Shown: one piece after another, positions 147-32,704 of the stretch
How the letters are laid out: each line of letters starts with the position of its first letter
Numbering within the stretch: the stretch's first letter is position 1
Source: a virus
Virus record (IMG/VR): IMGVR_UViG_3300008262_000008
Length of the DNA: 64,000 nucleotides
Direction: 5' to 3' (one strand)
Notes under the pieces: model-generated
What the model saw: only the letters and a program-made list of their open reading frames with translations
What the model was told of the DNA's origin: nothing
The model's database searches: none
Made by a program: the position numbers and the translations under genes

Positions 147-200
147 ATGATAGAACGGATTGCCCCAAAAGTCAACCCCTGAAAGATCAGTGTTGCTTAT
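147..200 (-). promoter_or_regulatory. sigma70-type early promoter with upstream palindromic operator
   Basis: TTGACT(175-170)-N17-TATCAT(152-147); ATAAG-N5-CTGAT at 186-200. Confidence 0.8.
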
Positions 201-4041: not shown

Positions 4042-4095
4042 AATATCCCATAAAAAAGAGGGTTTGTCAACCCCCTATTGATCAGTAAAACTAAT
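4042..4095 (-). promoter_or_regulatory. early promoter within an intrinsic terminator, plus operator
   Basis: TTGACA(4070-4065)-N17-GATATT(4047-4042); GGGGGTT-GACA-AACCCTC-T6; operator 4081-4095. Confidence 0.8.
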
Positions 4096-14381: not shown

Positions 14382-14713
14382 ACTGTGAGAAGTCTAAATG
14401 CGAGATAAATTGCACCACATGCTAGAAGAATAGGCCAAGCAGTGATAGCGATGTAGATGACAAATAATACCACACAAAAGGCAAGAAATCCCATGATGGC
14501 ATCACCATCTCCATCGCGTACTAGACCAGTATTAGAAGAAGATTTAGCATACATATCTCCTTCATAACGAGAACCTTTAGGGAAACAATTAATTACATCT
14601 CCAGGATTAAGTTGCTGAGCAAGAGCAAGAGCATCCTGATGATTAATTGCTTCTACTTCAGTCCATCGCAACTGTCCTGAAGGTGTTTTGATTAAGCAGC
14701 GCCAAGTGGTCAT
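14378..14713 (-). CDS. membrane protein, hypothetical
   Basis: C-terminal hydrophobic helix; ATGA overlap with dam. Confidence 0.65.
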   Translation of the reverse strand: MTTWRCLIKTPSGQLRWTEVEAINHQDALALAQQLNPGDVINCFPKGSRYEGDMYAKSSSNTGLVRDGDGDAIMGFLAFCVVLFVIYIAITAWPILLACGAIYLAFRLLTV

Positions 14714-14735
14714 TTGTTTTTTCCTTACATGAAAA

Positions 14736-14790
14736 ATTGTACATCAAAAAAGGGGGCGTGTCAACCCCCTGATCAATAAGTAATACTTAT
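14736..14790 (-). promoter_or_regulatory. early promoter embedded in an intrinsic terminator, plus perfect palindromic operator
   Basis: TTGACA(14764-14759)-N17-TACAAT(14741-14736); GGGGG-TTGACACG-CCCCC-T6; ATAAG-N5-CTTAT 14776-14790. Confidence 0.85.
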
Positions 14791-14796
14791 AGGTTA

Positions 14797-15237
14797 TTAG
14801 CAGTCATATTCTTTTACCTCATCGAGTTGATGTTCTAACTCCATGCGTTCTTCGGTTACTTGTTTAAGAGAAGAAACTACACTACGATAATTTGATTGAC
14901 ATTGATCGTAAAGATCTTGGAGTTTATTATACTCATCAATAGCAGCACGATAATTCTTGTAGATCTGCTCTTTATCATTCTCAGTGTAAGCAGGATCATC
15001 AGAATAGAGAGCATCATGCTTCATATCTTGAATGTTTTCTTTACTGGATCGTACTATCTCATTCCATGCCTCTGTAAATGTTCGATCTTGAACATCAACA
15101 TAATGCTCTAGCAGTGTCAATGCTGCATCAATCAATTTAGGTTCATAGTTACTATCTCGCAAAATATCACGAACAGTGAGATAACTGGTGATAGTTTCAC
15201 TCAAATCATTCATTACTTTCCAATAAGGACTGGTCAT
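14797..15237 (-). CDS. coiled-coil hypothetical protein
   Basis: ORF track. Confidence 0.65.
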   Translation of the reverse strand: MTSPYWKVMNDLSETITSYLTVRDILRDSNYEPKLIDAALTLLEHYVDVQDRTFTEAWNEIVRSSKENIQDMKHDALYSDDPAYTENDKEQIYKNYRAAIDEYNKLQDLYDQCQSNYRSVVSSLKQVTEERMELEHQLDEVKEYDC

Positions 15238-15397
15238 AATCTTTTAAGAAGTTTTCTAATGCCATTTCAACCATAGCACCAATTTCCTCCTCTGTCAAGC
15301 CATTTAAATGACTATACTTAACATCATTTGGATCCCAAGATAGTGTAAATGTTCCATCTGTATTTTCAGTTACTTCTAAACTATCATCAGAGTTCAT
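15206..15397 (-). CDS. acidic hypothetical protein
   Basis: ORF track; TFTLSWDPND motif. Confidence 0.6.
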   Translation of the reverse strand: MNSDDSLEVTENTDGTFTLSWDPNDVKYSHLNGLTEEEIGAMVEMALENFLKDYDQSLLESNE

Positions 15398-15584
15398 CAG
15401 AAATTACCTCCCCTTCATCTTTAATATCGTAGAGTTTTACAAATAATTTTTGAACTTCATTATTCATTTGTTCCATAGTTTCACTTTTAGAAGTCTTGAG
15501 AATTTCCTCAAATGACTGTTGTGCTCCGTTTAAACAAATTAAAAGAACTGTAAGTTCTTCATTGCTGAGATTTACTGTTTTCAT
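15387..15584 (-). CDS. hypothetical protein
   Basis: ORF track. Confidence 0.55.
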   Translation of the reverse strand: MKTVNLSNEELTVLLICLNGAQQSFEEILKTSKSETMEQMNNEVQKLFVKLYDIKDEGEVISDEL

Positions 15585-15747
15585 TTTTACTTCCCGAATT
15601 TATAATAATTTGATCATCCAATCCATCATTAAATGATTTAACTAGATAATCTTTGATTAATCCCTCATCCATGCCCTCTAGCATGTTATTAATTTGTGTT
15701 TTAACATCTTTAAATGTTTTAACTACTAAATTGTCCCCATCTTTCAT
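15559..15747 (-). CDS. hypothetical protein
   Basis: ORF track 15559..15768; start trimmed to MKDGD. Confidence 0.5.
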   Translation of the reverse strand: MKDGDNLVVKTFKDVKTQINNMLEGMDEGLIKDYLVKSFNDGLDDQIIINSGSKNENSKSQQ

Positions 15748-16375
15748 GATAAGTTCCTCCAAGATCAAAATTAACTGTGGTTCTTATTCCTTCCCCTTGA
15801 GGAAGAGTACCATGAATTAACCAACTCGGAAAAATTATAATCATGCCTTTTTCTGGGAGAACATGTAATAGTCTTTTCTGAGGGTGATATAAATGACTGT
15901 AATTATCAGAGTGCATTACAAAGTATATTGGTCCTCGATTATCACTCGCACCTACAGTGTCCATTAGTGGAGATGGACCATCTGGCACCTCTGTATATAT
16001 TACACAAGAAACATAATCTCTGCCATGTTCATGAGGGGTATGATAAGAACCTTTATTTCCTGTCACCGTCCATCCAGAAATTATATTTAGTTTACTCCAT
16101 TCAAATGGCAATAAACCATGATAAACTAATCGTCTTTGTATAATATCTTCATATGTTTCTTTTACAGTATTCCAATTTTTAGGTAGTTTAGGAATATAAT
16201 CAGGACTCCATCCAGCAGGTGTAAAATATCTTTGAAATGATCCTCCACTTGCTGTAGTATAATCACTGTAATCTCTTGGATCTGCTTCTGAAACTATTTC
16301 TTCTAAATCTGAAACATTATCTAACTTGTCAATAATAATCCAATTATTACCACAAGTAATCAATTCACCACTCAT
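15719..16375 (-). CDS. 2OG-Fe(II) oxygenase (TIGR02466-like)
   Basis: YHTPHEH...SCVIY...GMIIIFPSWLIHGT...RTTVNFD; ATGA overlap with the halogenase. Confidence 0.85.
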   Translation of the reverse strand: MSGELITCGNNWIIIDKLDNVSDLEEIVSEADPRDYSDYTTASGGSFQRYFTPAGWSPDYIPKLPKNWNTVKETYEDIIQRRLVYHGLLPFEWSKLNIISGWTVTGNKGSYHTPHEHGRDYVSCVIYTEVPDGPSPLMDTVGASDNRGPIYFVMHSDNYSHLYHPQKRLLHVLPEKGMIIIFPSWLIHGTLPQGEGIRTTVNFDLGGTYHERWGQFSS

Positions 16376-17835
16376 ACAGCATACTCCTGCTTATTATCAA
16401 TAATTGCTTGCAATGCTTCTCTATGCGAAACATGTTCTGCTGCATTCATTTCTCTTTTCATAGCATTAAAATTAATTTGTATACTACTTAGAATATGATC
16501 AGGTTCATAATGTAATCTTCGTTGAGCAATTGTTGGTGGTATTAATCCTAATCCATGCATTACTTGGATCCAATTTGCTTCTCTAAACATATTATAATGA
16601 TTTAAGAAATCACCCTTATCAGGATATCTATATTGATACATTTCTAATCGTTGTTCCAATCCTGGTGGAAGAGGTAAACTAGTAGCATACTTCCAAAATG
16701 CAGTATCGTTTCTCTTACAACGATAGTGTAATGCAACAAAATCTAAAATGTTATCTAATAATTCTGCAAAATGATGATTGTAATAATCTTCTGCATATGT
16801 ATTTCGTTTATCATAAGAATGAATAATATTTGTCAACATAAATGCTTGCTGAATACTACATCCAATAGATGTTGCTTCTAATGGTTCAATAAAACTAGCA
16901 GATAATCCGATTGCAACACAATTTTTAGACCATGCTTTATCTAATCTACCAGGATCAAATTTAACATGTTTTGCAATTTCTAATTCTTTACCATAAAGTT
17001 CTTCAACTTCTCTGTGTGCTTCTTCTGCTGTAATAAATCTATCACAAAATACATATCCATTTCCAAATCTATTCTGTGTTGGTATTCTCCATAACCATCC
17101 GCAATCCATTGATCTTGATAGAGTAGTTGAGGGAATATCTTCTAATCTTTCTGTAGGAAATGCGATTGCTGAATTAAGAGGAAGATATTTAGAATAACTA
17201 ATCCATTGAGCACCAAGAGATTTTTGATTAATAATTCTACCAAATCCTGTACTATCAACATAGAAATCATAATAATGATGATATTTACCTAACAAATAAT
17301 CTACACATCCATCTTCATCAAGTTGGACGTGTGCAATATCATCCTCAATAATTCCAATACCTCTCTTCTCGCAGAGTTTATGCAAATATTCATTTAATTT
17401 GAATGTATTAAAATGAAATTGATTTACACCATGATAAGGTTTAATATGCAGATTATTGACTACATGATCTGGAACCAAATTATCAGATGGTTCTCCTCTT
17501 GCAATCATATCAGCAAATAAAAACTTTAATCCCGTCTGACTTTCTACTGTCAATTCTCCAGATAAAGAGTGAATATATCGTTGATTGTCACCATTCCAAT
17601 TTACAAAATCAATTCCATATTTGAAAGTTGCATCAGTTTCTTCAATTAATTCTGCAAGATTAATATTACAATGATGCATAAAGGTAGACCAATGTTCAGT
17701 AGATCCTTCACCTACACCAATAATACCAATTTTTTTAGATTCAATTAAATCGATATGAAATTTTGGATTATCTTGCTTTAAAATTAATGCTGTAACTAAT
17801 CCACTTGTACCACCGCCGACAATCGCAATTTTCAT
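16372..17835 (-). CDS. prnA: flavin-dependent halogenase (tryptophan halogenase family)
   Basis: GGGTSG FAD motif, IGVGEGST, ATFKYGIDF (catalytic Lys), GWLWRIP (WxWxIP), FIEPLEATSI. Confidence 0.93.
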   Translation of the reverse strand: MKIAIVGGGTSGLVTALILKQDNPKFHIDLIESKKIGIIGVGEGSTEHWSTFMHHCNINLAELIEETDATFKYGIDFVNWNGDNQRYIHSLSGELTVESQTGLKFLFADMIARGEPSDNLVPDHVVNNLHIKPYHGVNQFHFNTFKLNEYLHKLCEKRGIGIIEDDIAHVQLDEDGCVDYLLGKYHHYYDFYVDSTGFGRIINQKSLGAQWISYSKYLPLNSAIAFPTERLEDIPSTTLSRSMDCGWLWRIPTQNRFGNGYVFCDRFITAEEAHREVEELYGKELEIAKHVKFDPGRLDKAWSKNCVAIGLSASFIEPLEATSIGCSIQQAFMLTNIIHSYDKRNTYAEDYYNHHFAELLDNILDFVALHYRCKRNDTAFWKYATSLPLPPGLEQRLEMYQYRYPDKGDFLNHYNMFREANWIQVMHGLGLIPPTIAQRRLHYEPDHILSSIQINFNAMKREMNAAEHVSHREALQAIIDNKQEYAV

Positions 17836-18347
17836 TCAACTCCTCCATTTGGTAATCTTTCAATAATAAAGTTTGGATGTGTAGCTTTTTGGCATGTATG
17901 GACTGCTAATTGTGGTGAATATTGTTCATCCAATTCGTCAAAGAAATAAAGATTATTTACATGATCCCACAACCAAGAAAGTTCCCATTCACAACCTGTT
18001 TTAATCCATGCTTTTTTCCATTCCTCTTTAAAGTTTTCACAATAATCATACTTATATTCTAAGATAATAGTTGTATTTGCAATATACCTAACTTTACTTA
18101 AAAATTCTGCAGGATTATCAAGATATTCTACCACTCCAGCAACCAGAGCAATATCAAACTTCTTGTCTCCAAAATCAGGAAACTCTACATTGAGATCACA
18201 TTTTACATCACAACCATCCATAATGTCAACCCCCACATATTCTGTAGGTTGAATTAATTCTTTTAATGATTGATCTCCTGATCCAAAATGAACAACAGAA
18301 GCACCCTTTTCAACATAACGTTGAAAAAATAAATTTGATAATGACAT
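17832..18347 (-). CDS. class I SAM-dependent methyltransferase
   Basis: VVHFGSG, YVGVDI, FDIALVAGVVEYL; start trimmed to MSLSNL; ATGA overlap with the halogenase. Confidence 0.8.
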   Translation of the reverse strand: MSLSNLFFQRYVEKGASVVHFGSGDQSLKELIQPTEYVGVDIMDGCDVKCDLNVEFPDFGDKKFDIALVAGVVEYLDNPAEFLSKVRYIANTTIILEYKYDYCENFKEEWKKAWIKTGCEWELSWLWDHVNNLYFFDELDEQYSPQLAVHTCQKATHPNFIIERLPNGGVE

Positions 18348-18361
18348 AATAATTTTAATAA

Positions 18362-18895
18362 TTAAACGTTTTGTGAAGATTGACCGTATCCAAGTATAAC
18401 TTCTTCTACCATACACATAGAAGGAGTATCAATATTTCTTCCCCCTCCATCCCAATAACCAGTATGATTTATATGAATATTGTGATTTCCTTCAGCATAT
18501 GATCTAATTCTATATCCAATTTGTGATCTTTTTCCTGCACCCCAAGAAGGAACCATGTATTCTCTTTGTCCTTGTCCCTCTTGATGATGATTTGATTGTG
18601 AATGTCTACCATATTCAACATCATCAACATAAAAAATCCAATGACTAATAGAGTGAGCACTGCCATACCATCTCATATGAGCATTCATACTAAATCTAAT
18701 GTGACTATCTGATCTTGAAGGTTGAAACCATAACCAACATCCAGGAGCCCAATAATATGTATTTACAGGTCTATACCATCCATCTCTGTAGTTAACTGTC
18801 TGCCTTTGTACAACTCTAGACACAAGATATGTACCTGTTACAGTACTGCTACCAGATGCATTACCTACGCTATTTACTCTTAAAGTTGCTGACAT
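18362..18895 (-). CDS. tail-fibre-associated beta-rich paralogue A1
   Basis: MSATLRVNSV start; shared AHSISHW.FY / RHS.S.HH.E / PSWG / YWDGGG motifs. Confidence 0.7.
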   Translation of the reverse strand: MSATLRVNSVGNASGSSTVTGTYLVSRVVQRQTVNYRDGWYRPVNTYYWAPGCWLWFQPSRSDSHIRFSMNAHMRWYGSAHSISHWIFYVDDVEYGRHSQSNHHQEGQGQREYMVPSWGAGKRSQIGYRIRSYAEGNHNIHINHTGYWDGGGRNIDTPSMCMVEEVILGYGQSSQNV

Positions 18896-18901
18896 AATAT
18901 T

Positions 18902-19429
18902 TTATAATGGTGATGGTAAATATTCTTCTGCTCTAGCTAATACTGGGACATAAAAAGTATTTCCTCCTCCATCCCAATAATGTCTAGCATTAAAATGTAC
19001 GCAATGTGGACCGTCACTGTATTGTCTTACCCAATATCCCATCGTAATTGGTTGAAGTTGATTACCAAAATCTGATACAGGTATTTGCCATTTTAGATTG
19101 TGACCATGTTCTTGGTGATCATTGCTCTCAGAATGTCTATGATATTCAACATTATTAACGTAAAATCTCCAGTGACTAATTGAGTGAGCATTTCCACCTC
19201 TCCATCCTAAAGCACAATCAAACATATAATCAATTACACTGTTAATTCTTTTTGGTGTAATTGTAATATAACTACCTGGCAAAGGTCTCCATTCATTCTG
19301 TGGATTATAGGCACCCCATTGAGTTCTCTGCTGTATTCTTTGCAAAGTCCTTCTCTGTAGTTGATTGATCGTAAGAGATGTACTACTACTGTTAGTTCTA
19401 ATAGTATCAACAAATAATTGGGATGCCAT
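18902..19429 (-). CDS. tail-fibre-associated paralogue A2
   Basis: Same motif set as A1. Confidence 0.7.
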   Translation of the reverse strand: MASQLFVDTIRTNSSSTSLTINQLQRRTLQRIQQRTQWGAYNPQNEWRPLPGSYITITPKRINSVIDYMFDCALGWRGGNAHSISHWRFYVNNVEYHRHSESNDHQEHGHNLKWQIPVSDFGNQLQPITMGYWVRQYSDGPHCVHFNARHYWDGGGNTFYVPVLARAEEYLPSPL

Positions 19430-19435
19430 TGATTA

Positions 19436-19798
19436 TTACTCTGGTTTTGGAAACTGCTCTTTAATTTCTAATCTTTTTGCTTGAAGTTCATCAGCATATC
19501 CAGGGTTATCTTCCATAATCTTATCCCAGAGAGCAATGATTAGTTCCTCTTTAGATGGATAACGACCTGGGAGTGCTCTTTGCATTCTAACTCTTTCAAG
19601 TGCAACTTCATCTTTAATTTCTTCCCACTTTGCAGCAAGTTCTTCTTTTGATGGTTGAGGACTATCTGCTAACCATGTAATATCCTCATAGTTTGGTCCT
19701 CTAACCCCATAAGGTTGTCCTGCATAAAATCTATGCATGACCTCACCATAATCTACACCATCATCTGCAAGTGGAAAATCCATCATGTTCTCTTCCAT
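19436..19798 (-). CDS. fibre assembly chaperone-like protein (XkdW-like)
   Basis: Y..ITWLADSPQPSKEEL...R...YPS.EELIIALW; own late promoter at 19824-19830. Confidence 0.55.
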   Translation of the reverse strand: MEENMMDFPLADDGVDYGEVMHRFYAGQPYGVRGPNYEDITWLADSPQPSKEELAAKWEEIKDEVALERVRMQRALPGRYPSKEELIIALWDKIMEDNPGYADELQAKRLEIKEQFPKPE

Positions 19799-19826
19799 TT
19801 TAATCTTAACCTCCTTTTTTTATTAT

Positions 19827-20399
19827 TTATCGAATATTAATAGTTCTACCTACTCCACCACGCTCTTCATTGCCAGCAGTTCCCAACCATTCTTCAACTA
19901 AAAGATAACCAAAAGCATTTTGTCTGCTACCTGTTCCATTCCAATAGTTTGTACTATATGCGCGAACTGTATGGTTATTTTGAGAATATGATCTCATTTG
20001 ATAACCAATTCTACCATTTGAAGTTCCCCAGGAAGGAACCGTCCACTTAAAAGTATTCCCTTCTTCTAAATGATTTCCAGATTCACTATGCATAAATGTA
20101 AGAATACCATTAACATAAAATTTCCAATGACTAATTGCATGACTGGCGTTTACCCATGCACGAGGTATTCTTGCCCAGAAAAATAATCTACTATCAGCTC
20201 TTTGTGGTGTAAAATCAACAAAAGCACCAGGTAACCAAGCATAAGAATTACTTGGATTCCAATCTCCACCAGTATAATCTGCACTATATCTTTGAATACA
20301 TCTTGCATTCAATTCTGAAACAGGAATAGTATAATTCTGTAAAGATAATGGAGATTGATTAACAGTACCTAAATTTTTAAGTGTAACTCTAGATGGCAT
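19827..20399 (-). CDS. tail-fibre-associated paralogue A3
   Basis: Same motif set. Confidence 0.7.
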   Translation of the reverse strand: MPSRVTLKNLGTVNQSPLSLQNYTIPVSELNARCIQRYSADYTGGDWNPSNSYAWLPGAFVDFTPQRADSRLFFWARIPRAWVNASHAISHWKFYVNGILTFMHSESGNHLEEGNTFKWTVPSWGTSNGRIGYQMRSYSQNNHTVRAYSTNYWNGTGSRQNAFGYLLVEEWLGTAGNEERGGVGRTINIR

Positions 20400-20911
20400 T
20401 ATGCTACCTCCCCTGAACCAAGAACTTCATCAACCATTAGTTGACCATATGCGTTTTGTCTGCTACCTGTTCCATTCCAATAGTTAGTATCATACCATCT
20501 TAAAGTATGATTATTTGTAGCATATGCTCTAATTTGGCATCCTATTCTAGCATTAAATGTTCCCCATGAAGGAACTTCCCACATATATGTATCTCCATCT
20601 TCCAGATGAGTTCCAGCTGCAGAATGATACTTGAATAATCTACCATTAGCATAAAATTGCAAATGACAAATCGCATTACTAGCATTTACCCAGGCACGAG
20701 GAGCTCTCCAAGCATATTGAATTAAACTATCAGATCTTTGAGGTGTGAAATCTACAAAAGATCCTGGCACCCAAGCATATGATGTACTAGGATTCCAAGA
20801 ACCTCCAGTATAAACAGATTGATATCTTTGCAAATATCGATTATTATACAATTCTTTTACAGGAATTGTAATATTACTAGCAAGATTTGTAATTCTATCT
20901 ACAGAAATCAT
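20399..20911 (-). CDS. tail-fibre-associated paralogue A4
   Basis: Start trimmed to MISVDRI; same motif set. Confidence 0.7.
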   Translation of the reverse strand: MISVDRITNLASNITIPVKELYNNRYLQRYQSVYTGGSWNPSTSYAWVPGSFVDFTPQRSDSLIQYAWRAPRAWVNASNAICHLQFYANGRLFKYHSAAGTHLEDGDTYMWEVPSWGTFNARIGCQIRAYATNNHTLRWYDTNYWNGTGSRQNAYGQLMVDEVLGSGEVA

Positions 20912-20919
20912 GATTACAC

Positions 20920-21429
20920 CTACGATGCTAAGTATTCTTGAATATAAGTTTGACCATAACAATTTTGGTTGCTGCCGCCGCCTTCCCAATACTGAGTAGA
21001 ATAAACTCCTACTTCATGGTTATTTTGAGAATACATTCTCATTTGATAACCAATTCTACCATTTGAAGTTCCCCATGATGCAAAGTCCCACACATATGTA
21101 GCACGATGCTCTTTATGATGTCCACTAATCGAATGCCTGCCTTGTTCTGTGCTTCCATTTGAATAAAATATCCAATGACTAATTGAATGAGCATTTCCTG
21201 CCCATCTTGCAACAGGAAGTGTCCAGTAACATCTTATTCTAGATGATGCTGATAATGGAGTATAATCAACAAATGCTCCAGGAACCCAAGCATAGTTATT
21301 ATTATTTCTCCATCCACCACCAGTATAGGTACTTCTAGTTTCACGAAGAATTCTTCTCCTCAACTGATCCAAAGAAAGAGGATCAAGATTAGGATCTGGA
21401 CTAATAGTATCGGTAACAAGTGTACTCAT
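20920..21429 (-). CDS. tail-fibre-associated paralogue A5
   Basis: MSTLVTDTI; same motif set. Confidence 0.7.
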   Translation of the reverse strand: MSTLVTDTISPDPNLDPLSLDQLRRRILRETRSTYTGGGWRNNNNYAWVPGAFVDYTPLSASSRIRCYWTLPVARWAGNAHSISHWIFYSNGSTEQGRHSISGHHKEHRATYVWDFASWGTSNGRIGYQMRMYSQNNHEVGVYSTQYWEGGGSNQNCYGQTYIQEYLAS

Positions 21430-21935
21430 GTTGGTAAATACTCCTCGATTGTCATTAAAGCTCTACAAAATTGAACAGATCCACCACCATCCCAATATCC
21501 AGTAGAGTGTAGTCGATTACGATTACTATTTCCATACCATCTCATTTGATATCCAATTCTTTGTGTTCCACTGTGCCAAGGAACATCCCACATATAACAA
21601 TGTCTAGTTTCATAGTTTTGAGAAGATATACAATGTCTACCTCTTTCTACAGAACCACCTTGAGTATAGAAAATACAATGCATAATATTATGACCATCAA
21701 TATAACCTACAGAAAAATTACAAGTAACTCTAGCTCTTACGTTCTCAGAAGATGCTCCAAAAAATGCGTAGTCCCACCATAATCCAGGAGCCCATCCGTA
21801 GTTTGTACCAGGATCCCAAGTACCACCAGTATATTCTTGATATACTGTTCTAATAATCCTACCTCGTAATTGTGCTGTAGGAATTGCAACTGTAAGATCT
21901 GAAGTTGCTATTGTATCAACCCTAAGGTTACTCAT
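21426..21935 (-). CDS. tail-fibre-associated paralogue A6
   Basis: MSNLRVDTI; same motif set. Confidence 0.7.
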   Translation of the reverse strand: MSNLRVDTIATSDLTVAIPTAQLRGRIIRTVYQEYTGGTWDPGTNYGWAPGLWWDYAFFGASSENVRARVTCNFSVGYIDGHNIMHCIFYTQGGSVERGRHCISSQNYETRHCYMWDVPWHSGTQRIGYQMRWYGNSNRNRLHSTGYWDGGGSVQFCRALMTIEEYLPT

Positions 21936-21945
21936 ATTTAACCTC

Positions 21946-22452
21946 CTAACCTAAATCAGGTCCAGTAAGATCTTGCCTTTCTCCAGGTTGAGGTGAAGCT
22001 TCAGGTTTTGTTGGCCATGGAACATTTTTTAAAACCCCATCTTGAAGAACAGGATTGATATCCAAATCAGTAATATCTCTAAGAGCCTGCATATAATCTA
22101 CCCATTCTTGAGGAACTGGTTCATTTCTACTCATAGAGCGAATAATAATCCAATCACATTCCTTAAGTTTTGCATTACGAACTCTTCTAACTGCTTGCAT
22201 TGGTGCTAGTTTTTGAAGTCTAACAGCCTCTGCTTCTACTTCTTCTTTTGTTGGTTTTAAAGATGGATCATCATTCCAAGTCAGTCCTTCCCAATCTTCT
22301 CCAACTAAACTCCACGCACAACTTGGACGAAGAGAAATAATAGCTGCAGCAAGATCAGGTTTTGAATATGCGTATTTTGTTTCTTCTAATGTATAATTTG
22401 GAGCAGATGATTTTTCTGCATCTCTTACATCAATTTCTTCCGCCATATACAA
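21946..22452 (-). CDS. phage tail fibre assembly chaperone
   Basis: VRRVRNAKLKECDW...W.DYMQALRDIT...WPTKP, with an N-terminal XkdW-like SLRPSCAWSL.G..W.GLTW domain. Confidence 0.8.
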   Translation of the reverse strand: MYMAEEIDVRDAEKSSAPNYTLEETKYAYSKPDLAAAIISLRPSCAWSLVGEDWEGLTWNDDPSLKPTKEEVEAEAVRLQKLAPMQAVRRVRNAKLKECDWIIIRSMSRNEPVPQEWVDYMQALRDITDLDINPVLQDGVLKNVPWPTKPEASPQPGERQDLTGPDLG

Positions 22453-22470
22453 CTCCAGTTTTATCTTTAT

Positions 22471-23145
22471 TTATGCCTGAGGATATGCCCATTCTTCAAC
22501 TAATCCGAAACTGACACCTTGTTCATAACTATCTCCTCCATTTTGATAGTTTGACCAAGTTGCATTTAAAACAAATCCATCATCTCTGTTATTTGCGTTC
22601 TTAACCCAAGGTGTATAAGTAACAGGATTTAAAGTTTGTGGACGATCCCACCAACCAAAAACTACATTAATTGGTGTACTGTCTGTATTATTATCATAGT
22701 GCAGAACAGCAACACCATTAGAATTCAACCATGTATCATATAATCCTGCTTCTGGAATTTGTTGTAATGCTTGACCTCCAGAAATTGAGTTATTGTTTCT
22801 AGCAACTCCCATAGTATTATCCCAGGATGCTTCGCAAAAAATATTGTATTCAATATAAAACCAACTGTTGATTGATTTTGGCTGCACTACAATTTCTAAT
22901 GGTTCTAGTAATGTAGCTTGTGTTTGTGTGGGTCTAATAATGTTATTTTCTGGTCCTGGTCTTCTATCGTTGTTTTGTACACGATAATATACTCTATCCA
23001 TAGAAACTTTATAACGTACCTGTACAACAGACCCAGGCATGTATAGTGATGATGGAGAATTAATGAATACTGTAGAACTAGTATTCCCTTGAATTGTATT
23101 TACTTTTAATTGGCTCATGATTAGTAATCTGCAGAAATTTCCCAA
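22471..23145 (-). CDS. tail-fibre-associated paralogue B1
   Basis: MSQLKVNTIQ; VQPKSINS, YDNNTDSTP, WDRPQ motifs shared with B2/B3. Confidence 0.65.
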   Translation of the reverse strand: MGNFCRLLIMSQLKVNTIQGNTSSTVFINSPSSLYMPGSVVQVRYKVSMDRVYYRVQNNDRRPGPENNIIRPTQTQATLLEPLEIVVQPKSINSWFYIEYNIFCEASWDNTMGVARNNNSISGGQALQQIPEAGLYDTWLNSNGVAVLHYDNNTDSTPINVVFGWWDRPQTLNPVTYTPWVKNANNRDDGFVLNATWSNYQNGGDSYEQGVSFGLVEEWAYPQA

Positions 23146-23687
23146 GCAAATCCATAACTAATTCCTATTTCATGGTTTCCAGTACCAGTGCTACCAGATG
23201 TTCTATTAAAGAAATAAGTATAGTTGCTACCATTAGATGATCTAACAGCAACATCATAAGTTTGTGCGGATGTTGCTCCAGGACGATCATACCAATCAAC
23301 AGTATGAAGATGAGGTGTGCTATCTACGTTTTGATCATACAAACAAGTTGTAATACAACTATGTCTAGCATTTCCTCTTTGTGTATTATATCCTATAAGA
23401 CCATTATTTCTACGAACAAGAAATACGACATTCTCATTCCCTTCTCCATGAAGCATCCATCTCAATCTAATGGTGCTATTTGAATATTTTGGAGTAATTA
23501 CTAATCTTACATCAGTGAGTGGATTACCATCTCCACTATTACTAGCAGAATATGTAGTTCTATTATCACTTCTAACATACCAATGATTAATATATGTATT
23601 TGGAGCTCTTAATGTGTGCCCTGACTGCATCGAAAGAGTGTTTCCTGTTGCAGGAGCAATAGATCCAACAGTTATTGTTCTTGGCAT
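23121..23687 (-). CDS. tail-fibre-associated paralogue B2
   Basis: ITPKYSNS, YDQNVDSTP, YDRPG. Confidence 0.65.
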   Translation of the reverse strand: MPRTITVGSIAPATGNTLSMQSGHTLRAPNTYINHWYVRSDNRTTYSASNSGDGNPLTDVRLVITPKYSNSTIRLRWMLHGEGNENVVFLVRRNNGLIGYNTQRGNARHSCITTCLYDQNVDSTPHLHTVDWYDRPGATSAQTYDVAVRSSNGSNYTYFFNRTSGSTGTGNHEIGISYGFAWEISADY

Positions 23688-24265
23688 TATCTTGCAATCT
23701 CCCTTAATACAAACATACTGACACCTTTTTCATAATCCCCCCAATAGTTATTCCATGATTTATTTACACGAATACTATCATTACTATTACTTGCATATCT
23801 AGCACCAATACCGTATGTATAAGTAGAAGTTCCACCAGGACGATCTACAAATTTAATATGCAACCAATCTGGTGTACTACTCCTATCTTGATCATAACGT
23901 GCTCCAGTAACTCCACTATATTGAACGTTACCAACGGCCGTATTATATCCTATATATCCAGCTGTATTGGTGATAGATCCATTTCTTAAAATTTGAAATG
24001 TAATATCATTGGAAGATTCATAAAATAAAAATATGTCCATCCATATTTCACTATCACTATATTTTGGTGTGATAGCAGTATTTAATATTGATATTTCTCT
24101 ACTTACGTTGTCAGCATTAGTTGCATATGTAGCAATAACATCCGTCATGTTCCAAACACATTGAATAACTGTGCCTGGAACTTTCATTAGAGTTCCAGCA
24201 GCAACTCCAATAACATAATCGTTTTCTGCTCTTCCGATTAATTCATCAACAATTACTGTACTCAT
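23687..24265 (-). CDS. tail-fibre-associated paralogue B3
   Basis: ITPKYSDS, YDQDRSSTP, VDRPG. Confidence 0.65.
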   Translation of the reverse strand: MSTVIVDELIGRAENDYVIGVAAGTLMKVPGTVIQCVWNMTDVIATYATNADNVSREISILNTAITPKYSDSEIWMDIFLFYESSNDITFQILRNGSITNTAGYIGYNTAVGNVQYSGVTGARYDQDRSSTPDWLHIKFVDRPGGTSTYTYGIGARYASNSNDSIRVNKSWNNYWGDYEKGVSMFVLREIAR

Positions 24266-24858
24266 ACAATACTCCAGTCTCCATTGACCGTAACAGTTTG
24301 TCCACTTGCTATAGTAATTGGTCCAGCTGTCATACCATTGGTTCCAGATGGAATGGTAAGTGAAGTAGAAATTGTAGCACTATTAGTTCTAATAATCGAT
24401 GCTGATCCAAGATAAGGAACTTCATCAATTGTTACTGCCCTGTTTCCAGCAATTGTCAGTTGCGAACCATTAAATGTCAAGTTGGAAGATGAATTCAAAG
24501 CACTAGTACCATTACCATACAACAAATATCCAGAAGTAAAAGATGTTTGCCCTGTTCCACCTTTATTAACAGCAACTGCTGAACTTAAGTTAGCAGGGTT
24601 CAAATAATATGAACCTGCTTGTCCGCCAAGAGTTCCAGCATTTAACAAACTCCAAGCAGTTCCATTATGAAAGTAAATATCATTTACACCAGTGTCATAA
24701 ATCAAATAACCTGCACTAACACCTGTCAATCCAGTTCTAGATGCAGTTGCAAGTGCAGGAAGTCTGAAAAAGCTAGTTGATACGTTATTGAAATTCAACG
24801 TCTGCAACGTTGCCGTTGTAGTCGTATTAATCTGAGTTTCTGTAATCTGCTGGCCCAT
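24262..24858 (-). CDS. short tail-fibre/adaptor protein
   Basis: VAVNKGGTGQT fibre motif; C-terminal TIPSGTNGMTAGPITI..GQTVTVNGDWSIV. Confidence 0.65.
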   Translation of the reverse strand: MGQQITETQINTTTTATLQTLNFNNVSTSFFRLPALATASRTGLTGVSAGYLIYDTGVNDIYFHNGTAWSLLNAGTLGGQAGSYYLNPANLSSAVAVNKGGTGQTSFTSGYLLYGNGTSALNSSSNLTFNGSQLTIAGNRAVTIDEVPYLGSASIIRTNSATISTSLTIPSGTNGMTAGPITIASGQTVTVNGDWSIV

Positions 24859-24888
24859 AAGACTATTACTCCGTTATATTAATATTTA

Positions 24889-27800
24889 TTATAATGGTAG
24901 TTCTCTAATGTGAATTGTATCCCTAGCAGAAGGAATATGAGTACCAGTGAATACAACGTTTGTGCCCGAAACATTATAATGAGTAGCAGGTATTTGAAGA
25001 ACACCATTTAAGAATACAAGAACACTGCTGGAAGTATGTGCTGTTAATGCTGTTAAAGCAAATGTTGTTGTAGTACCATTACCAGTATAGTTACGAGAAA
25101 CATATTTACCACTTAATCCATAAGTACCAGTTACACTTAAATTACCTGTAGCATTTAAGTTACCACCAACATTTAATTTAGCCGTTGATATTGGAGCGGC
25201 GCCAATGCCAACGTTTGTGGTCGTTGATAAAGCATCAGCAGTAATGGCAAAGTTACGAAGATCAAATACTTTAGTATTAGTTAAACCAAACTGATACCAT
25301 GTGGTTCCATAATATAACCAACCCAAGTTTCTGCCATATCCAGTTGTAGTACTAGTTGGATCCCAGCTGGTATTCCAAATAATATCTCCGTTACTTGGAG
25401 TTGTATAATATGTTGGCAATACAGGGTTTCCAGAAGTGTTGGTTGGAGCAATTAAGGTTCCTTTAAGAACTGTACCATCGTTATTAGAATAAGTAATCTT
25501 CTTAGCTTGGAATTCTTGATCTGAAGTAACTTTTGATTGGAAAGTAACAGGACCAGAGAATAATGATTCTAAGGAGTTACTATCACCACCAATAACAGTT
25601 AGTTTATCAGTAAGAACAAGTTCAGAGAATGTCTGAATGGTAGTTCCTTCTTCACCTACAACATTTAACTGTGCAATGTCACTAGAAGTAATTTGACCTG
25701 TAACTGGGTTAATAACTTGGTTACCAATGAATAGGTCACCATTTGAGTTTAGACCAGAATAGAATGAAACTCCAGCTGCCTCCTTCAAACACTGAGCATA
25801 TTTAACTTGATCAAAGGTAAGAACTTCAATCTGTGTTTGTGGGAATGCAGTTGAGTAGTTACCAGGACCAAATCCAACATATTCAAAGGTATGGTTACCA
25901 GAACGTTGAATAGAGTGACGACGAAGTTCAATTAGTAGATCGACTACTGTACTTCCTTGTAATTTAAGTGGAATTTTTCTTGTCTCTGCATCGCCTGCAT
26001 ATGCAGTAACTGTAGTTGTTCCAAGTTTATTTAACGTTGACGTATATCCTAAGGCATTACTTGTCTCTGCAAGGAAAAATTCTACTGCTTCTTTAGTAAT
26101 ACTACGCTTAGAATCAACGGTTGTTCCATCAGATGTAGCACTTACTGCTCCAATAGTTACATTATCAGCAATTGAAATTGCTGCTAATGGATCTGCTTGA
26201 GGATTATCTCTATCAAATGCAGGATAAACTTCATTCACATTTTGTGAAAACTTGTAATCACTATAATTTGATGTTGTTGGAGAAATTGACGCACATAATA
26301 CTGTTAGATAGAAAATACCATCTTGTACATCAGAAATAAAAGGTTGAATTTTTTCAGACTCATAAACGTAAAATACTTTATTATAATCTGAAGCTGTTCC
26401 CTGTCTAGGTTGAATAACATATCCAGTCAAAGGATCTCTAGGCAGTGGTTTAGCACCTTTAGGAATAACATATCTAAATCTATAAATTCTGTCCTTCAGT
26501 GTTCTTGCGTCAGAAATTCTCTTAATGAATGCTGAAGGCGTAAAGTTCAAGTTATTATAAATTGTACTTGTATTCAGTTCAGTATAAATTGTATTTGTAG
26601 CACCTTGAACACACTGAATATACCATCCACCAACAACGTTACCTAGTCCAGAAATATTATAAACTGTACTATCATATTTGATTGGACTATTTGTTTGTCC
26701 TGCTGTAGTTCCTGTTACTAGTCCAGTATTATTGGATGGAGAAATTCTTGCTTCTCGAATAATATTACCTGTCGTTGTCTGAAGATTACAGAATAATCTA
26801 TCAGGTAAAGACTGCGTTGTATCATATCTAGCACCAATTTGATAACCTTGTGCTTTAACAGGAGGAGCAGTTGAAGCATTAGTATATCCATATAGATATA
26901 ATCTTGCACCAGTTCCAGATGCTCCACCTAAAGCACCAACATGTTTTGTTCTCTTAACATCAATATTTACCCAGTTAATAGAAATCTCAGTACCAAATGT
27001 AATATAACCACTTACTGTTGAAGCATTAGCAACTGAAAGAGTAATTACTGTACCATTAATTGCAGATACTGTAGCATTTGTTCCTATTCCATTACCACTA
27101 ACTGCTTGTCCTTGAACAATACCATTATTATTAGCAACAGTAATTGTAAATTGTCCTGATGTACCAGTTGCAGTAGTACTTACAACATCTAATTGTTTTG
27201 GAGGAATGACATGTGTAAATGTTCCTGCTTTATCTTTAGTAAAGGCAGCTGCTTTAAATCCTCTACATCTCAATGCTGTACTACCAAAGTTAGAGTTACT
27301 GTTAGTGATCGACATGTCAGCACCACTATCAGCAAAGAAGTGATCACCATATGCAACAGCGAACACCGAAACGACCTGAATAAAAGCATCATTAGCAGCT
27401 TTAATGTGGCAATGTCGCCACCCCTGTTTATATCGACATGCACCATCTAAGTGAGAACCTGATCCACCGTCATCATATGTTTTAGTAACTGAATTATATC
27501 TTACAAAAGCTCTATCATCTTTCTGCAGAGATAGTCCCGTAAACTGTGCAACAACCATAGATTTAAAACCAGTTGTTCTAAATCCATCAGCATTCATACC
27601 ATTCAATCCCCAAACAGATCGCAATGAACAGTTGAAGATATATGGTGAAGCACTGTCTACAGTATCAATTTCAACCTTTGCAAGAATATTTGTACCAATA
27701 GCATTACCAGACGGTTCAGATGCCATCTGATAAGTGAATAATGAACCTTGTGCCGAAGTAACTTGGAATGATCCATTATACAATGCAGCATCAAGATCTG

Positions 27801-28809
27801 ATTGCGGTCCTGTAGATCCAATAACACCACTGACATTAATTGAAATGCCCACAGAGAAACCATGGTTTACTGGAGTATCATCCTCGTCTACAGTAATAGC
27901 AGTTGCTGTTTGACCGTTCCTGTTAATTGATAGGACACGAAATTCGTCAGAAATTGGACCAACAATTCTGTTTTCTTCAACTCTTGCTTGTAACTGATCT
28001 TGTCCAGGTGCTCCAGAAGTATCAGGAATAGAAGCGTATGCTCTTGAAATCTTTTGATAATAAAGTTCTAGATCAGTTCTATCTGATAAGTTTGGATCTC
28101 CAACTCCACTTGGAATTGTAAGTCTAGATCCACCATCTGCACTTGAAAGGTAACCAAGAGTATTTCTACCATCAGCAAATTCAAATGCTGTCAACTTATG
28201 GTGAGAGAAGCTTGGTTGAATAGTTCTGGGATCACCAGGAAGATAATATACTCCTGTTTCATCACCATCAAAAATGGTGAACTGCCACATATAGCATCCA
28301 CCAGTAACTCTGAATATTGCTGAACTCTTTGGTTCGTTTTCTGAACTAACGCCAATCGAAGATTTTGTTGTTGGATATGGAACATACTTAGGAACAATTT
28401 TTGTTCTTCTGAGGTCAGATCCAATAATTGAACAACCTCTAGGAACAATTACACCACCTTCAACAGAATTAAACTTATATAATACGTTTGATGGATTAGT
28501 AATATCAAAGTTACTGTTACTATCTAATGGTGCAATCTGTGTATAATCAAATTCTCCTGGTCTATTATCAATAATATATTCGGAAGGATACAGATAGATA
28601 CTAAAAGCATCAAATTCGTCGTTTGAAAGTCCTACTCTATACGAAAATCTAGCAACTTCTAAAAATGCTCTTTGTAAAGTTTTAAACGGTCTTAGAGCAG
28701 AGTTGCCCCTATTATCAATCGAATCTGTAGCATCAAAATCGTCTGGGTTGACGTAAATAATACGCCCAGTACGAGAAGTGACAATATTCTTTAATCTTGT
28801 TAATGACAT
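24889..28809 (-). CDS. large tail fibre / virion structural protein
   Basis: 1306 aa; MSLTRLKN..IYVNPDDFDATD...RPFKTLQRA start typical of cyanomyovirus fibres; beta-helix-like core; C-terminal YTGNGTTTTF..VFLNGVLQ repeat. Confidence 0.8.
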   Translation of the reverse strand: MSLTRLKNIVTSRTGRIIYVNPDDFDATDSIDNRGNSALRPFKTLQRAFLEVARFSYRVGLSNDEFDAFSIYLYPSEYIIDNRPGEFDYTQIAPLDSNSNFDITNPSNVLYKFNSVEGGVIVPRGCSIIGSDLRRTKIVPKYVPYPTTKSSIGVSSENEPKSSAIFRVTGGCYMWQFTIFDGDETGVYYLPGDPRTIQPSFSHHKLTAFEFADGRNTLGYLSSADGGSRLTIPSGVGDPNLSDRTDLELYYQKISRAYASIPDTSGAPGQDQLQARVEENRIVGPISDEFRVLSINRNGQTATAITVDEDDTPVNHGFSVGISINVSGVIGSTGPQSDLDAALYNGSFQVTSAQGSLFTYQMASEPSGNAIGTNILAKVEIDTVDSASPYIFNCSLRSVWGLNGMNADGFRTTGFKSMVVAQFTGLSLQKDDRAFVRYNSVTKTYDDGGSGSHLDGACRYKQGWRHCHIKAANDAFIQVVSVFAVAYGDHFFADSGADMSITNSNSNFGSTALRCRGFKAAAFTKDKAGTFTHVIPPKQLDVVSTTATGTSGQFTITVANNNGIVQGQAVSGNGIGTNATVSAINGTVITLSVANASTVSGYITFGTEISINWVNIDVKRTKHVGALGGASGTGARLYLYGYTNASTAPPVKAQGYQIGARYDTTQSLPDRLFCNLQTTTGNIIREARISPSNNTGLVTGTTAGQTNSPIKYDSTVYNISGLGNVVGGWYIQCVQGATNTIYTELNTSTIYNNLNFTPSAFIKRISDARTLKDRIYRFRYVIPKGAKPLPRDPLTGYVIQPRQGTASDYNKVFYVYESEKIQPFISDVQDGIFYLTVLCASISPTTSNYSDYKFSQNVNEVYPAFDRDNPQADPLAAISIADNVTIGAVSATSDGTTVDSKRSITKEAVEFFLAETSNALGYTSTLNKLGTTTVTAYAGDAETRKIPLKLQGSTVVDLLIELRRHSIQRSGNHTFEYVGFGPGNYSTAFPQTQIEVLTFDQVKYAQCLKEAAGVSFYSGLNSNGDLFIGNQVINPVTGQITSSDIAQLNVVGEEGTTIQTFSELVLTDKLTVIGGDSNSLESLFSGPVTFQSKVTSDQEFQAKKITYSNNDGTVLKGTLIAPTNTSGNPVLPTYYTTPSNGDIIWNTSWDPTSTTTGYGRNLGWLYYGTTWYQFGLTNTKVFDLRNFAITADALSTTTNVGIGAAPISTAKLNVGGNLNATGNLSVTGTYGLSGKYVSRNYTGNGTTTTFALTALTAHTSSSVLVFLNGVLQIPATHYNVSGTNVVFTGTHIPSARDTIHIRELPL

Positions 28810-32090: not shown

Positions 32091-32372
32091 TTATTGATCT
32101 ATCATTAGATCTTGAATTGAAACACTATCTTCAGTGTATTCTAACTCAAATAACAATGGGTGTACACATTCAGCAATAAGATAACTAGATCCTCTTCCAA
32201 TATCTTCGATAGAGATTGGATCTGAATTTCCAACTTCTAAGTAGACTTCAGGATTTATTTTTTCTTCCTGGGTAACATCATCCCAGGAAAAAGGAACACC
32301 ATTTGCATAATATACTTTAACAATACCTCTACTGAATAGAAATTGATACTTAAGATGTATCGTTATTTTCAT
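32091..32372 (-). CDS. hypothetical protein
   Basis: ORF track; ATGA overlap with speD. Confidence 0.6.
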   Translation of the reverse strand: MKITIHLKYQFLFSRGIVKVYYANGVPFSWDDVTQEEKINPEVYLEVGNSDPISIEDIGRGSSYLIAECVHPLLFELEYTEDSVSIQDLMIDQ

Positions 32373-32704
32373 CTATCGAAACAATTTGTTTTATGGTTAG
32401 AAGATTGTAGCTCCATAACCAAATGTAGAATTGCAGGTCTTGGATCGCAATCCCCACAAGTAAAAGCATCTATTGCAGCACACTGACGTTCTGGCCAAGT
32501 ATGAATACTTAAATGACTTTCAGAAAGTAAAGCAACCATAGTAATACCATGAGGATCAAATTGATGATATGAAATATTCAGAAGAGTTGCTTTTGATTTA
32601 TTTATTGCCTCAACAAAGGCACTTTTAAGGAATTCTACATCATTAAGTAATAGTGCAGAACAACCATAGACTTCAGTTACACAATGTTTTCCTAGTTTTT
32701 CCAA
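32369..32704 (-). CDS. speD: S-adenosylmethionine decarboxylase proenzyme
   Basis: GKH...YGC; HQFDPHGIT..ALLSESHLSIHTWPE self-cleavage motif; FTCG. Confidence 0.9.
   Translation of the reverse strand: MEKLGKHCVTEVYGCSALLLNDVEFLKSAFVEAINKSKATLLNISYHQFDPHGITMVALLSESHLSIHTWPERQCAAIDAFTCGDCDPRPAILHLVMELQSSNHKTNCFDR

What the first reader, a model, noticed from the sequence alone, without database searches (positions are those of the whole stretch)
15719..19830. Halogenase + methyltransferase + 2OG-oxygenase cassette fused to a late tail-fibre-tip operon: candidate virion-tailoring system
Seen: a late-promoter motif (19824-30) precedes a chain of chaperone, paralogues A2 and A1, SAM methyltransferase, flavin-dependent halogenase and 2OG-Fe(II) oxygenase. 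The methyltransferase starts 14 nt after A1 ends, and the three enzymes are joined by ATGA overlaps. I see no terminator or sigma70 promoter until about 14750. The six A paralogues each carry 7-9 Trp in about 170-190 aa, plus clustered His/Tyr. Established: cyanophage flavin-dependent halogenases exist (VirX1 of Syn10 halogenates aromatics in vitro) but, as far as I know, the natural substrate is unknown; this enzyme keeps the catalytic Lys and WxWxIP. Inference: the three enzymes halogenate, hydroxylate or methylate residues on the adjacent Trp/His-rich fibre-tip proteins, a RiPP-like post-translational armour for receptor-binding proteins, or build a small molecule for the virion. No flavin reductase is in the window, so FADH2 would come from the host.
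Basis: partly seen in the sequence, partly recalled or inferred. Interest (0 to 1): 0.88.

Follow-up and report, generated by a model that had tools for sequence, protein, structure and literature searches.

The report
Halogenase cassette inside tail-fibre-tip operon
A cyanophage keeps a halogenase, a 2OG oxygenase and a methyltransferase-fold protein at the end of its tail-fibre-tip operon, and every related phage found does the same, which makes the fibre tips a testable candidate for the unknown natural substrate of phage halogenases.

Summary
On the minus strand of a T4-like cyanomyovirus, a late-promoter motif at 19824-30 heads a chaperone-like gene, tips A2 and A1, an MTase-fold protein, a flavin-dependent halogenase and a PF13759 2OG oxygenase. 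No further late motif or terminator occurs before 14770-14751.

New here:
- The block (fibre stub, three B tips, Tfa, four A tips, Tfa-like, two A tips, MT-like, halogenase, oxygenase) recurs in every metagenomic A-family locus long enough to show it.
- That covers 9 lineages (halogenase identity down to 48%), from about 180 kb and 330-354 kb phages, with differing flanks and no counterexample.
- A proteins model as TNF/C1q-like jelly rolls. The same domain ends T7-like tail fibres.

- Those halogenase-less relatives keep the same Trp/His motifs, so Trp richness is not a substrate signature.
- The "SAM methyltransferase" has the fold, but its SAM loop is degenerate in most orthologues.
- 78 of 79 other viral halogenase loci lack the A family.

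Verdict: a conserved enzyme cassette co-inherited, and probably co-transcribed, with the tips. Modification of the tips is plausible (about 0.4) but unproven. A small-molecule cargo island is nearly as likely.

The parts
24883..24889 (-). late-promoter-like ATAAATA before the fibre stub
   Evidence: 24 nt before the stub gene start
24262..24858 (-). 198-aa fibre stub (P198)
   Evidence: PHROG tail-fibre matches; first gene of the conserved block in all relatives
22471..24265 (-). three B-type tip paralogues (23687-24265, 23121-23687, 22471-23118)
   Evidence: match the C-terminus of tail-fibre family phrog_6942; distantly related to the A family (hhalign E 4e-4)
22468..22474 (-). late-promoter-like ATAAATA before the Tfa gene
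21946..22452 (-). tail-fibre assembly chaperone
   Evidence: PF16778 E 1.2e-14
19827..21935 (-). A6, A5, A4, A3 tip paralogues
   Evidence: alignment
19824..19830 (-). late-promoter-like ATAAATA heading the last sub-operon
   Evidence: no further copy on this strand down to 6934
19436..19798 (-). Tfa-like small protein (CH2)
   Evidence: phrog_9114 E 1.5e-7, weak XkdW match; conserved at this position in all relatives
18362..19429 (-). A2 and A1 tip paralogues
   Evidence: A1 model pLDDT 87.7, TNF/C1q-like jelly roll
17832..18347 (-). class I methyltransferase-fold protein (MT-like), catalytic competence uncertain
   Evidence: Pfam below cut-off; model matches SAM MTases at TM about 0.55; motif I degenerate in orthologues
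16372..17835 (-). flavin-dependent halogenase (Trp-halogenase family)
   Evidence: PF04820 E 4.6e-100; motifs; PDB relatives
15719..16375 (-). 2OG-Fe(II) oxygenase, PF13759
   Evidence: invariant H112, H115, H117, H188, R198 among orthologues
14797..15768 (-). four small ORFs closing the transcription unit (conserved only in close relatives)
14751..14770 (-). terminator-like hairpin with T-run
14736..14790 (-). early promoter (TTGACA-17-TACAAT) with its operator, start of the Dam operon

Best explanation
The MT-like protein, the halogenase and the PF13759 oxygenase form a fixed three-gene cassette. It is the 3' end of a conserved multi-tip tail-fibre module: stub, three B tips, Tfa, four A tips, Tfa-like, two A tips.

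The cassette has no promoter motif of its own. It is most likely transcribed late from the ATAAATA at 19824-30 together with A2 and A1, and it ends at the hairpin at 14770-14751.

Shown here: the gene order, the enzyme family assignments and catalytic motifs, the tip-domain fold, and linkage without exception in 9 lineages.

Inferred: the enzymes act in the cytoplasm, late in infection, on products of this module. The most direct reading is halogenation or hydroxylation (methylation less certain) of the newly made TNF-like tip proteins or the stub, before or during chaperone-assisted trimerisation. FADH2 would come from a host reductase. Which residues are touched, and which halide is used, is unknown.
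For: 1. Every A-family locus that reaches past the last A gene carries MT-like then halogenase (then oxygenase where the contig continues). This holds in IMG/VR, JGI, ENA and Logan contigs, with none lacking them.
2. These are 9 lineages at 80-90% halogenase identity, with a minimum of 48%.
3. They come from phages of two size classes: contigs of 176-180 kb, and contigs of 330 and 354 kb.
4. The flanks differ while the block stays. Upstream lie a 1306-aa, a 3507-aa or 1164+1097-aa fibres. Downstream lie Dam and denV, convergent NUDIX and gp15, or a DNA ligase.
5. The module's halogenases form one clade (support 0.999). Its only other member, L029, still abuts B-type tips.
6. The MT-like protein was not found in the other 78 halogenase loci.
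7. Gaps are 14-74 nt or overlaps, and no relative has an ATAAATA between the last tip gene and the halogenase start. One lineage, L018, is an exception to the spacing: 2.9 kb lies between its last A gene and the MT-like gene.
8. In cultured Syn9, S-CREM1, P-TIM40 and S-WAM1, halogenases also follow the fibre and Tfa genes directly. In Syn10 a halogenase lies about 6 kb downstream of the fibre by match coordinates; its region was not opened.
9. Literature: VirX1 has a large open active site and no known natural substrate (PMC8407142). Flavin-dependent halogenases that act on Trp within peptides exist: MibH, SrpI, ChlH (PMC12615548).
Against: - No modified virion protein is known, and none was tested here.
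- The conserved Trp/His motifs of the A family are kept in T7-like fibre tips that have no halogenase nearby.
- 78 of 79 other viral halogenase loci lack the A family.
- Their usual neighbours are 2OG-type oxygenases, with carbamoyltransferases in some. Such clusters were read in print as a small-molecule or capsule-decoration pathway (PMC7824862).
- Known hyperplastic regions carrying plain metabolic genes also lie inside cyanophage structural modules (PMC2984593), so position alone is weak evidence.
- The closest solved relatives are free-Trp or indole halogenases (PyrH at 1e-66, 6Y1W at 2e-61), not MibH (2e-46).
- Linked lineages are not fully independent samples.
Confidence: 0.4

Rival explanations
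1. Cargo island. The three enzymes act on a small molecule: free Trp or an indole-type compound, or an amino-acid or sugar-derived metabolite. This matches the published proposal for halogenase/2OG/methylase clusters in jumbo cyanophages. Under this reading they sit at the end of the fibre operon because that site tolerates insertions, and the whole block is inherited as a unit.
For: - The halogenase plus PF13759 pairing is general: 62 of 79 viral halogenase loci, nearly all without the A family.
- Islands hold up to 5 halogenases and about 10 oxygenases, with carbamoyltransferases in 15 loci.
- Iyer et al. read such clusters as a secondary-metabolite or capsule-decoration pathway (PMC7824862).
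- The closest solved relatives act on free Trp or indoles.
- Hyperplastic AMG regions occur within cyanophage structural modules (PMC2984593).
- Distant A-domain tips work without these enzymes.
Against: - Halogenases are sporadic in cyanophages (20 of 153 genomes, PMC10452541), yet none of the 9 module lineages has lost, moved or swapped the cassette while both flanks changed.
- There is no scaffold-building enzyme in or next to the window's cassette.
- The MT-like partner appears only in this module.
Confidence: 0.35
2. Receptor-side function. The enzymes alter a host envelope component or its cytoplasmic precursor, the glycan or protein that the lectin-like tips bind. This would limit re-adsorption of progeny or superinfection. 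They would be linked to the tips because both track the same receptor.
For: - The A fold resembles TNF-like lectins (BC2L-C N-terminal domain, PLTL).
- Genes that mask a receptor are known to sit beside receptor-binding genes in other phages (own knowledge, for example T5 llp next to its receptor-binding gene).
- The linkage evidence is the same as for the best explanation.
Against: - Late cytoplasmic enzymes have little time to change an envelope that is already exposed.
- There is no transport or glycosyl-handling gene in the cassette.
- No precedent is known to me for halogenation of envelope glycans.
Confidence: 0.1
3. The cassette makes a small ligand or cofactor that the tips carry or need, rather than modifying the polypeptide covalently.
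For: - The linkage evidence only.
- The A family has a conserved His/Glu cluster and Gly-flanked Trp loops that could form a binding site.
Against: - The same motifs occur in relatives that lack the enzymes.
- Nothing points to a specific ligand.
Confidence: 0.05

Closest known systems
VirX1, the flavin-dependent halogenase of cyanophage Syn10 (PDB 6QGM)
   Same: Both are cyanomyovirus-encoded members of the Trp-halogenase family, with GxGxxG, the catalytic Lys and WxWxIP. The natural substrate is unknown. The Syn9 counterpart lies just downstream of the tail-fibre and Tfa genes; in Syn10 the halogenase match lies about 6 kb downstream of the fibre by coordinates only.
   Different: Identity is only about 30% and the clade differs. 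The VirX1-type clade is sister to the optional second halogenase of L015, L020 and L026, which the window lacks. The tip proteins differ, and no homology was detected between Syn9 gp35-37 or gp40 and the A, B or MT-like families.
Halogenase/2OG-oxygenase/methylase clusters of jumbo cyanophages (S-SSM6a type; Iyer et al. 2021, PMC7824862)
   Same: A phage cluster that combines a halogenase, 2OG-Fe(II) oxygenases and a methylase. The same enzyme families dominate the viral halogenase neighbourhoods surveyed here.
   Different: The window's version is a minimal trio, with no carbamoyltransferase, cupin or HAD phosphatase. It is fixed inside a fibre-tip operon and strictly linked to one tip family.
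Peptide-acting flavin-dependent halogenases of RiPP pathways (MibH, SrpI, ChlH)
   Same: The enzyme family is the same. They give a precedent for halogenating Trp within a ribosomally made polypeptide encoded beside the enzyme (PMC12615548).
   Different: Their substrates are short peptides, leader-guided or macrocyclised. Here the candidates are folded 170-190 aa tip domains with no evident leader/core layout. The window's enzyme is not closer to MibH than to free-Trp halogenases.
TNF/C1q-like receptor-binding tips of phage fibres (lambda gpJ tip, cyanophage A-1(L) short-fibre CBD, TNF-like lectins)
   Same: The A1 model is an all-beta jelly roll that matches these. The domain also ends T7-like tail fibres.
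   Different: Here the tips are stand-alone proteins present as nine paralogues with two chaperones. No cultured phage genome in the collection has them.

Membership tests
Flavin-dependent halogenase, Trp-halogenase family (PF04820) | Profile match above the curated cut-off | tested here: met
   336 bits against a cut-off of 21; phrog_2928 E 5.7e-102
Flavin-dependent halogenase, Trp-halogenase family (PF04820) | GxGxxG flavin-binding loop, WxWxIP, catalytic Lys and conserved Glu | tested here: met
   G7-G-G-T-S-G12, K72, W247-L-W-R-I-P252 and E317/E320 are invariant across phage halogenases. Equivalence of K72 to PrnA K79 rests on alignment position only.
Flavin-dependent halogenase, Trp-halogenase family (PF04820) | Halogenating activity and substrate | not testable with these tools
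   Needs an enzyme assay
VirX1 orthologue | Falls in the VirX1 / Syn9 gp42 clade | tested here: not met
   About 30% identity. In the tree the window's halogenase lies in a separate clade.
Class I SAM-dependent methyltransferase | Rossmann-like seven-strand MTase fold | tested here: met
   Model pLDDT 78; the top Foldseek matches shown are mostly SAM methyltransferases, TM about 0.55
Class I SAM-dependent methyltransferase | Profile match above the curated cut-off | tested here: not met
   PF13489 at 21.6-21.8 bits against 27; best PDB profile match E 1e-3
Class I SAM-dependent methyltransferase | Conserved glycine-rich SAM-binding motif I | tested here: inconclusive
   The window has GSGD, but most orthologues lack the glycines
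2OG-Fe(II) oxygenase (PF13759) | Profile match above cut-off, with conserved metal and 2OG ligands | tested here: met
   54.3 bits against 27. H112, H115, H117, H188 and R198 are invariant in 9 orthologues. Which of them bind the metal was not determined.
Phage tail-fibre tip (receptor-binding) domain | Tip-type fold, placement at fibre C-termini, chaperone next door | tested here: met
   TNF/C1q-like model. The domain ends proteins beside PF03906 in T7-like phages. PF16778 Tfa lies adjacent. Presence in virions was not tested.
RiPP-like tailoring system | Precursor with leader and core, with enzyme recognition of the leader | tested here: inconclusive
   The shared N-terminal strand of A and B proteins could serve, but it also fits attachment to the stub. 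No recognition element was looked for. Adjacency of enzymes and candidate substrates is met.
Jumbo-cyanophage halogenated-metabolite cluster (Iyer et al. 2021) | Carbamoyltransferases, HemK-like methylase, cupin and HAD phosphatase together with halogenase and 2OG oxygenase | tested here: not met
   Only the halogenase, the oxygenase and an MTase-fold protein are present in the window's unit. Carbamoyltransferase occurs in 15 of 79 other halogenase loci.

The most novel reading that the evidence does not exclude
Phage receptor-binding tips are enzymatically halogenated, and perhaps hydroxylated or methylated, before assembly. That would make virion proteins the natural substrates of at least one clade of cyanophage flavin-dependent halogenases, a kind of virion protein chemistry not described so far.
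Probability: 0.3. Interest if true: 0.9.

Novelty: new variant of a known kind. Interest (0 to 1): 0.62.

Why it matters
Cyanophage halogenases have been noted since 2005, and one of them (VirX1) is a studied biocatalyst. Their natural substrate and their role in infection are unknown.

This module gives the clearest genomic lead so far. One halogenase clade has stayed attached to one family of fibre-tip proteins across distant phages, including jumbo phages. That names concrete candidate substrates, which can be tested by co-expression and mass spectrometry.

If the tips are modified, it would be a new layer of host-range determination, and a natural example of protein-level halogenation outside RiPPs. 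If they are not, the result still defines a compact three-gene unit in which to look for the metabolite.

Tried and rejected
- Near-identity DNA search of 14500-24500 against 50,697 phage records: no match.
- tblastn of A2 against the same records: no match.
- Complex prediction with halogenase, A1 and the MT-like protein as partner: no verdict (score 0.23, mark 0.32). It is not used as evidence either way.
- No whole genome is held for the window.
- The Syn9 transcriptome paper and the VirX1 paper are not held. The expression class of the Syn9 halogenases could not be read.
- Profile comparisons of Syn9 gp35, gp36, gp37 and gp40 with the A, B and MT-like families: no relation.
- The 82-sequence A alignment was too diverse for the metagenome scan. 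The 6-sequence alignment was used instead.
- The sigma70-like site at 18229-18200 inside the MT-like gene was considered as a separate early start for the halogenase. It was set aside: it lacks the operator that marks the window's early promoters, and such matches are at chance frequency.
- The argument that Trp and His richness marks a substrate was rejected after aligning halogenase-less relatives.

Full report
**What the window is.**
The window has no near-identical DNA among 50,697 phage records. Its 1306-aa fibre (24889-28809) is 61-68% identical to the fibres of Syn9, S-SM1 and S-CREM1. It is therefore a T4-like cyanomyovirus. Almost all genes lie on the minus strand. Close relatives come from metagenome contigs of 176-180 kb, one of them labelled freshwater.

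**Checking the observation.**
- The gene chain and its junctions are as described.
- Pfam confirms the halogenase (PF04820, E 4.6e-100) and the oxygenase (PF13759, E 1.8e-14). The methyltransferase call rests on matches below the cut-off.
- The halogenase keeps GGGTSG, K72, WxWxIP and the EPLE glutamates.
- GATAAATA at 19831-19824 fits the cyanomyovirus late-promoter consensus NATAAATA (PMC2984593).
- ATAAATA is under-represented in the window (15 against 28 expected). 14 of the 15 copies are on the coding strand. The three copies in the module lie 15-25 nt before the starts of the stub, Tfa and chaperone-like genes.
- No further copy occurs on this strand down to 6934.
- The first terminator-like hairpin after the enzymes is at 14770-14751. 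It overlaps an early promoter that carries the window's operator.
- A sigma70-like match inside the MT-like gene lacks that operator, and such matches are at chance frequency.
- Co-transcription of the cassette with A2 and A1 is thus the simplest reading of the sequence. No RNA data could be obtained.

**What the A proteins are.**
- The six paralogues are 32-36% identical and hold 7-9 Trp each.
- An AlphaFold model of A1 built on 82 homologues has pLDDT 87.7 and is all-beta.
- It matches TNF/C1q-like jelly rolls: the Pgp3 C-terminal domain, the TNF-like lectins BC2L-C and PLTL, the lambda gpJ tip and the cyanophage A-1(L) short-fibre binding domain. It also matches many small uncharacterised phage proteins.
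- A full profile search found 229 relatives. In many of them the domain is the C-terminus of a longer protein.
- Of the three looked up, two sit right after a PF03906 T7-type tail-fibre gene in podovirus-like contigs; the third lies on a short contig without a recognisable context.
- The three B proteins match the C-terminus of a tail-fibre family and are probably distant relatives of A.
- Two Tfa-type chaperone genes are interleaved.
- The 'fibre tip' label is well supported.

**The key new result: linkage.**
The A family is absent from cultured phage genomes but forms 78 clusters in metagenomes. I collected A-family loci through exact-protein look-ups, IMG/VR and JGI metagenomes and annotated them with profiles built from the window.
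- Every locus that extends past the last A gene has the same order: stub, three B, Tfa, four A, Tfa-like, two A, MT-like, halogenase, then PF13759 oxygenase where the contig continues. Four lineages add a second halogenase.
- There is no counterexample.
- The halogenases of these loci fall into 9 lineages at 80-90% identity, with a minimum of 48%. They form one clade with support 0.999.
- The carriers are of two kinds. One kind is 176-180 kb genomes like the window's. The other is contigs of 329,908 and 353,822 bp, in line with CheckV estimates of about 350 kb for the IMG/VR fragments.
- The flanks differ: different upstream fibres, and downstream Dam and denV, or convergent NUDIX and gp15, or a DNA ligase.
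- No relative has an ATAAATA between the last tip gene and the halogenase start. The gaps are 14-74 nt, except in L018, where 2.9 kb intervenes.
- The only non-A member of the halogenase clade, L029, has oxygenase and halogenase converging on three B-type tip genes.

**The other direction.**
- Of the 79 viral contigs whose halogenases most resemble the window's, only one has the A family, and it is the same contig as an A-family locus already collected.
- The common neighbours are PF13759 oxygenases (62 loci), P4H-like PF13640 (50), DUF6445 (35) and an unnamed family (35).
- Less common are a baseplate or fibre-connector family (31), gp15 (15) and carbamoyltransferases (15).
- Many contigs carry islands of up to five halogenases and about ten oxygenase-type genes, placed among tail and fibre genes.
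- In cultured Syn9, S-CREM1, P-TIM40 and S-WAM1 the order is fibre, Tfa genes, a small ORF, halogenase(s), then 2OG oxygenases. In Syn10 only the match coordinates were compared: the halogenase lies about 6 kb downstream of the fibre.
- In S-PM2, P-SSM2 and S-SCSM2R the halogenase lies elsewhere.

**The enzymes.**
- The closest solved relatives of the halogenase are PyrH (1e-66) and 6Y1W (2e-61). MibH (2e-46) and VirX1 (3e-45) are more distant.
- The window's enzyme is not in the VirX1 / Syn9 gp42 clade. The optional second halogenase of some relatives is sister to that clade.
- The MT-like protein models as a class I methyltransferase fold. Its glycine-rich loop is kept in the window and its near relatives and lost in most orthologues, so methyl transfer is uncertain.
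- The MT-like family has 50 clusters. It was not seen in the other halogenase loci.
- The oxygenase orthologues keep four His and one Arg.

**Weighing the readings.**
For a function tied to the tips:
- Halogenases are sporadic in cyanophages (20 of 153 genomes, PMC10452541).
- Yet this trio was never lost, moved or swapped in nine lineages while everything around the block changed.
- The trio also has a partner protein found nowhere else.

Against tip modification in particular:
- Most characterised enzymes of this family act on small molecules.
- Similar phage clusters were read in print as a metabolite or capsule-decoration pathway (PMC7824862).
- Known hyperplastic regions with ordinary metabolic genes also sit inside cyanophage structural modules (PMC2984593).

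I put tip or virion-protein tailoring at about 0.4, an unrelated small-molecule cargo island at about 0.35, a receptor-side role at 0.1 and a ligand for the tips at 0.05. A complex prediction gave no verdict and carries no weight.

**Novelty.**
The enzyme families and cyanophage halogenases are known. In the papers I could search, I found no description of three things: the stand-alone A tip family, the nine-tip module, and its fixed MT-like/halogenase/oxygenase tail. I class the finding as a new variant of a known kind. The first-stage notes on this genome had already listed the paralogue array and the three late-promoter modules. I re-tested both and they hold.

Noticed in passing
L030, L042, L052, L053, L058, L061, L066, L078, L095 (IMG/VR loci): Some cyanomyovirus contigs carry islands of 3-5 tandem, mutually diverged halogenases with about 10 genes of 2OG-oxygenase type (PF13759, PF13640, DUF6445). 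The islands are flanked by gp15, arrays of a baseplate or fibre-connector family, or a fibre of about 1930 aa. No scaffold-building enzyme is evident.
   Followed up: partly
L123 and L124 (JGI contigs of 329,908 and 353,822 bp): Jumbo T4-like phages carry the same nine-tip module and enzyme trio as the window's phage of about 180 kb. There it sits next to gp15, gp13 and the sheath gene, after a fibre of 2556-3496 aa with a weak CBM_5_12 match.
   Followed up: partly
L126:8001-9530 and the ERZ27275810 contig: The A domain occurs as the C-terminal domain of fibre proteins next to PF03906 in T7-like podovirus contigs, sometimes in two or three tandem copies of the gene. The tip domain is therefore shared between myo- and podoviruses.
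   Followed up: partly
window 186-200, 1143-1157, 2043-2057, 4081-4095, 14776-14790, 59329-59343: The 15-nt dyad ATWAG-N5-CTKAT occurs 8 times against 1.4 expected. At 14776-14790 it sits just upstream of a sigma70-like promoter. It is probably an operator of the early promoters.
   Followed up: partly
window, whole: ATAAATA is depleted (15 against 28 expected) and strongly strand-biased (14 of 15 on the coding strand). Several copies lie just upstream of gene starts, as expected if the motif is reserved for late promoters.
   Followed up: partly
L018:5476-14653: In one lineage the A-type genes are much longer (up to 1707 nt), and about 2.9 kb lies between the last A gene and the MT-like gene. 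These may be tips fused to extra domains, or extra genes in the module.
   Followed up: no
window 32369-32704: A 111-aa ORF whose sequence looks like SpeD (S-adenosylmethionine decarboxylase) sits between the fibre genes and the baseplate hub. It was not scanned against any family library.
   Followed up: no
window 18362-24265 (A and B proteins): The tip proteins are almost free of lysine (0-5 per protein) while rich in Trp, Tyr and His. This composition bias remains unexplained.
   Followed up: no
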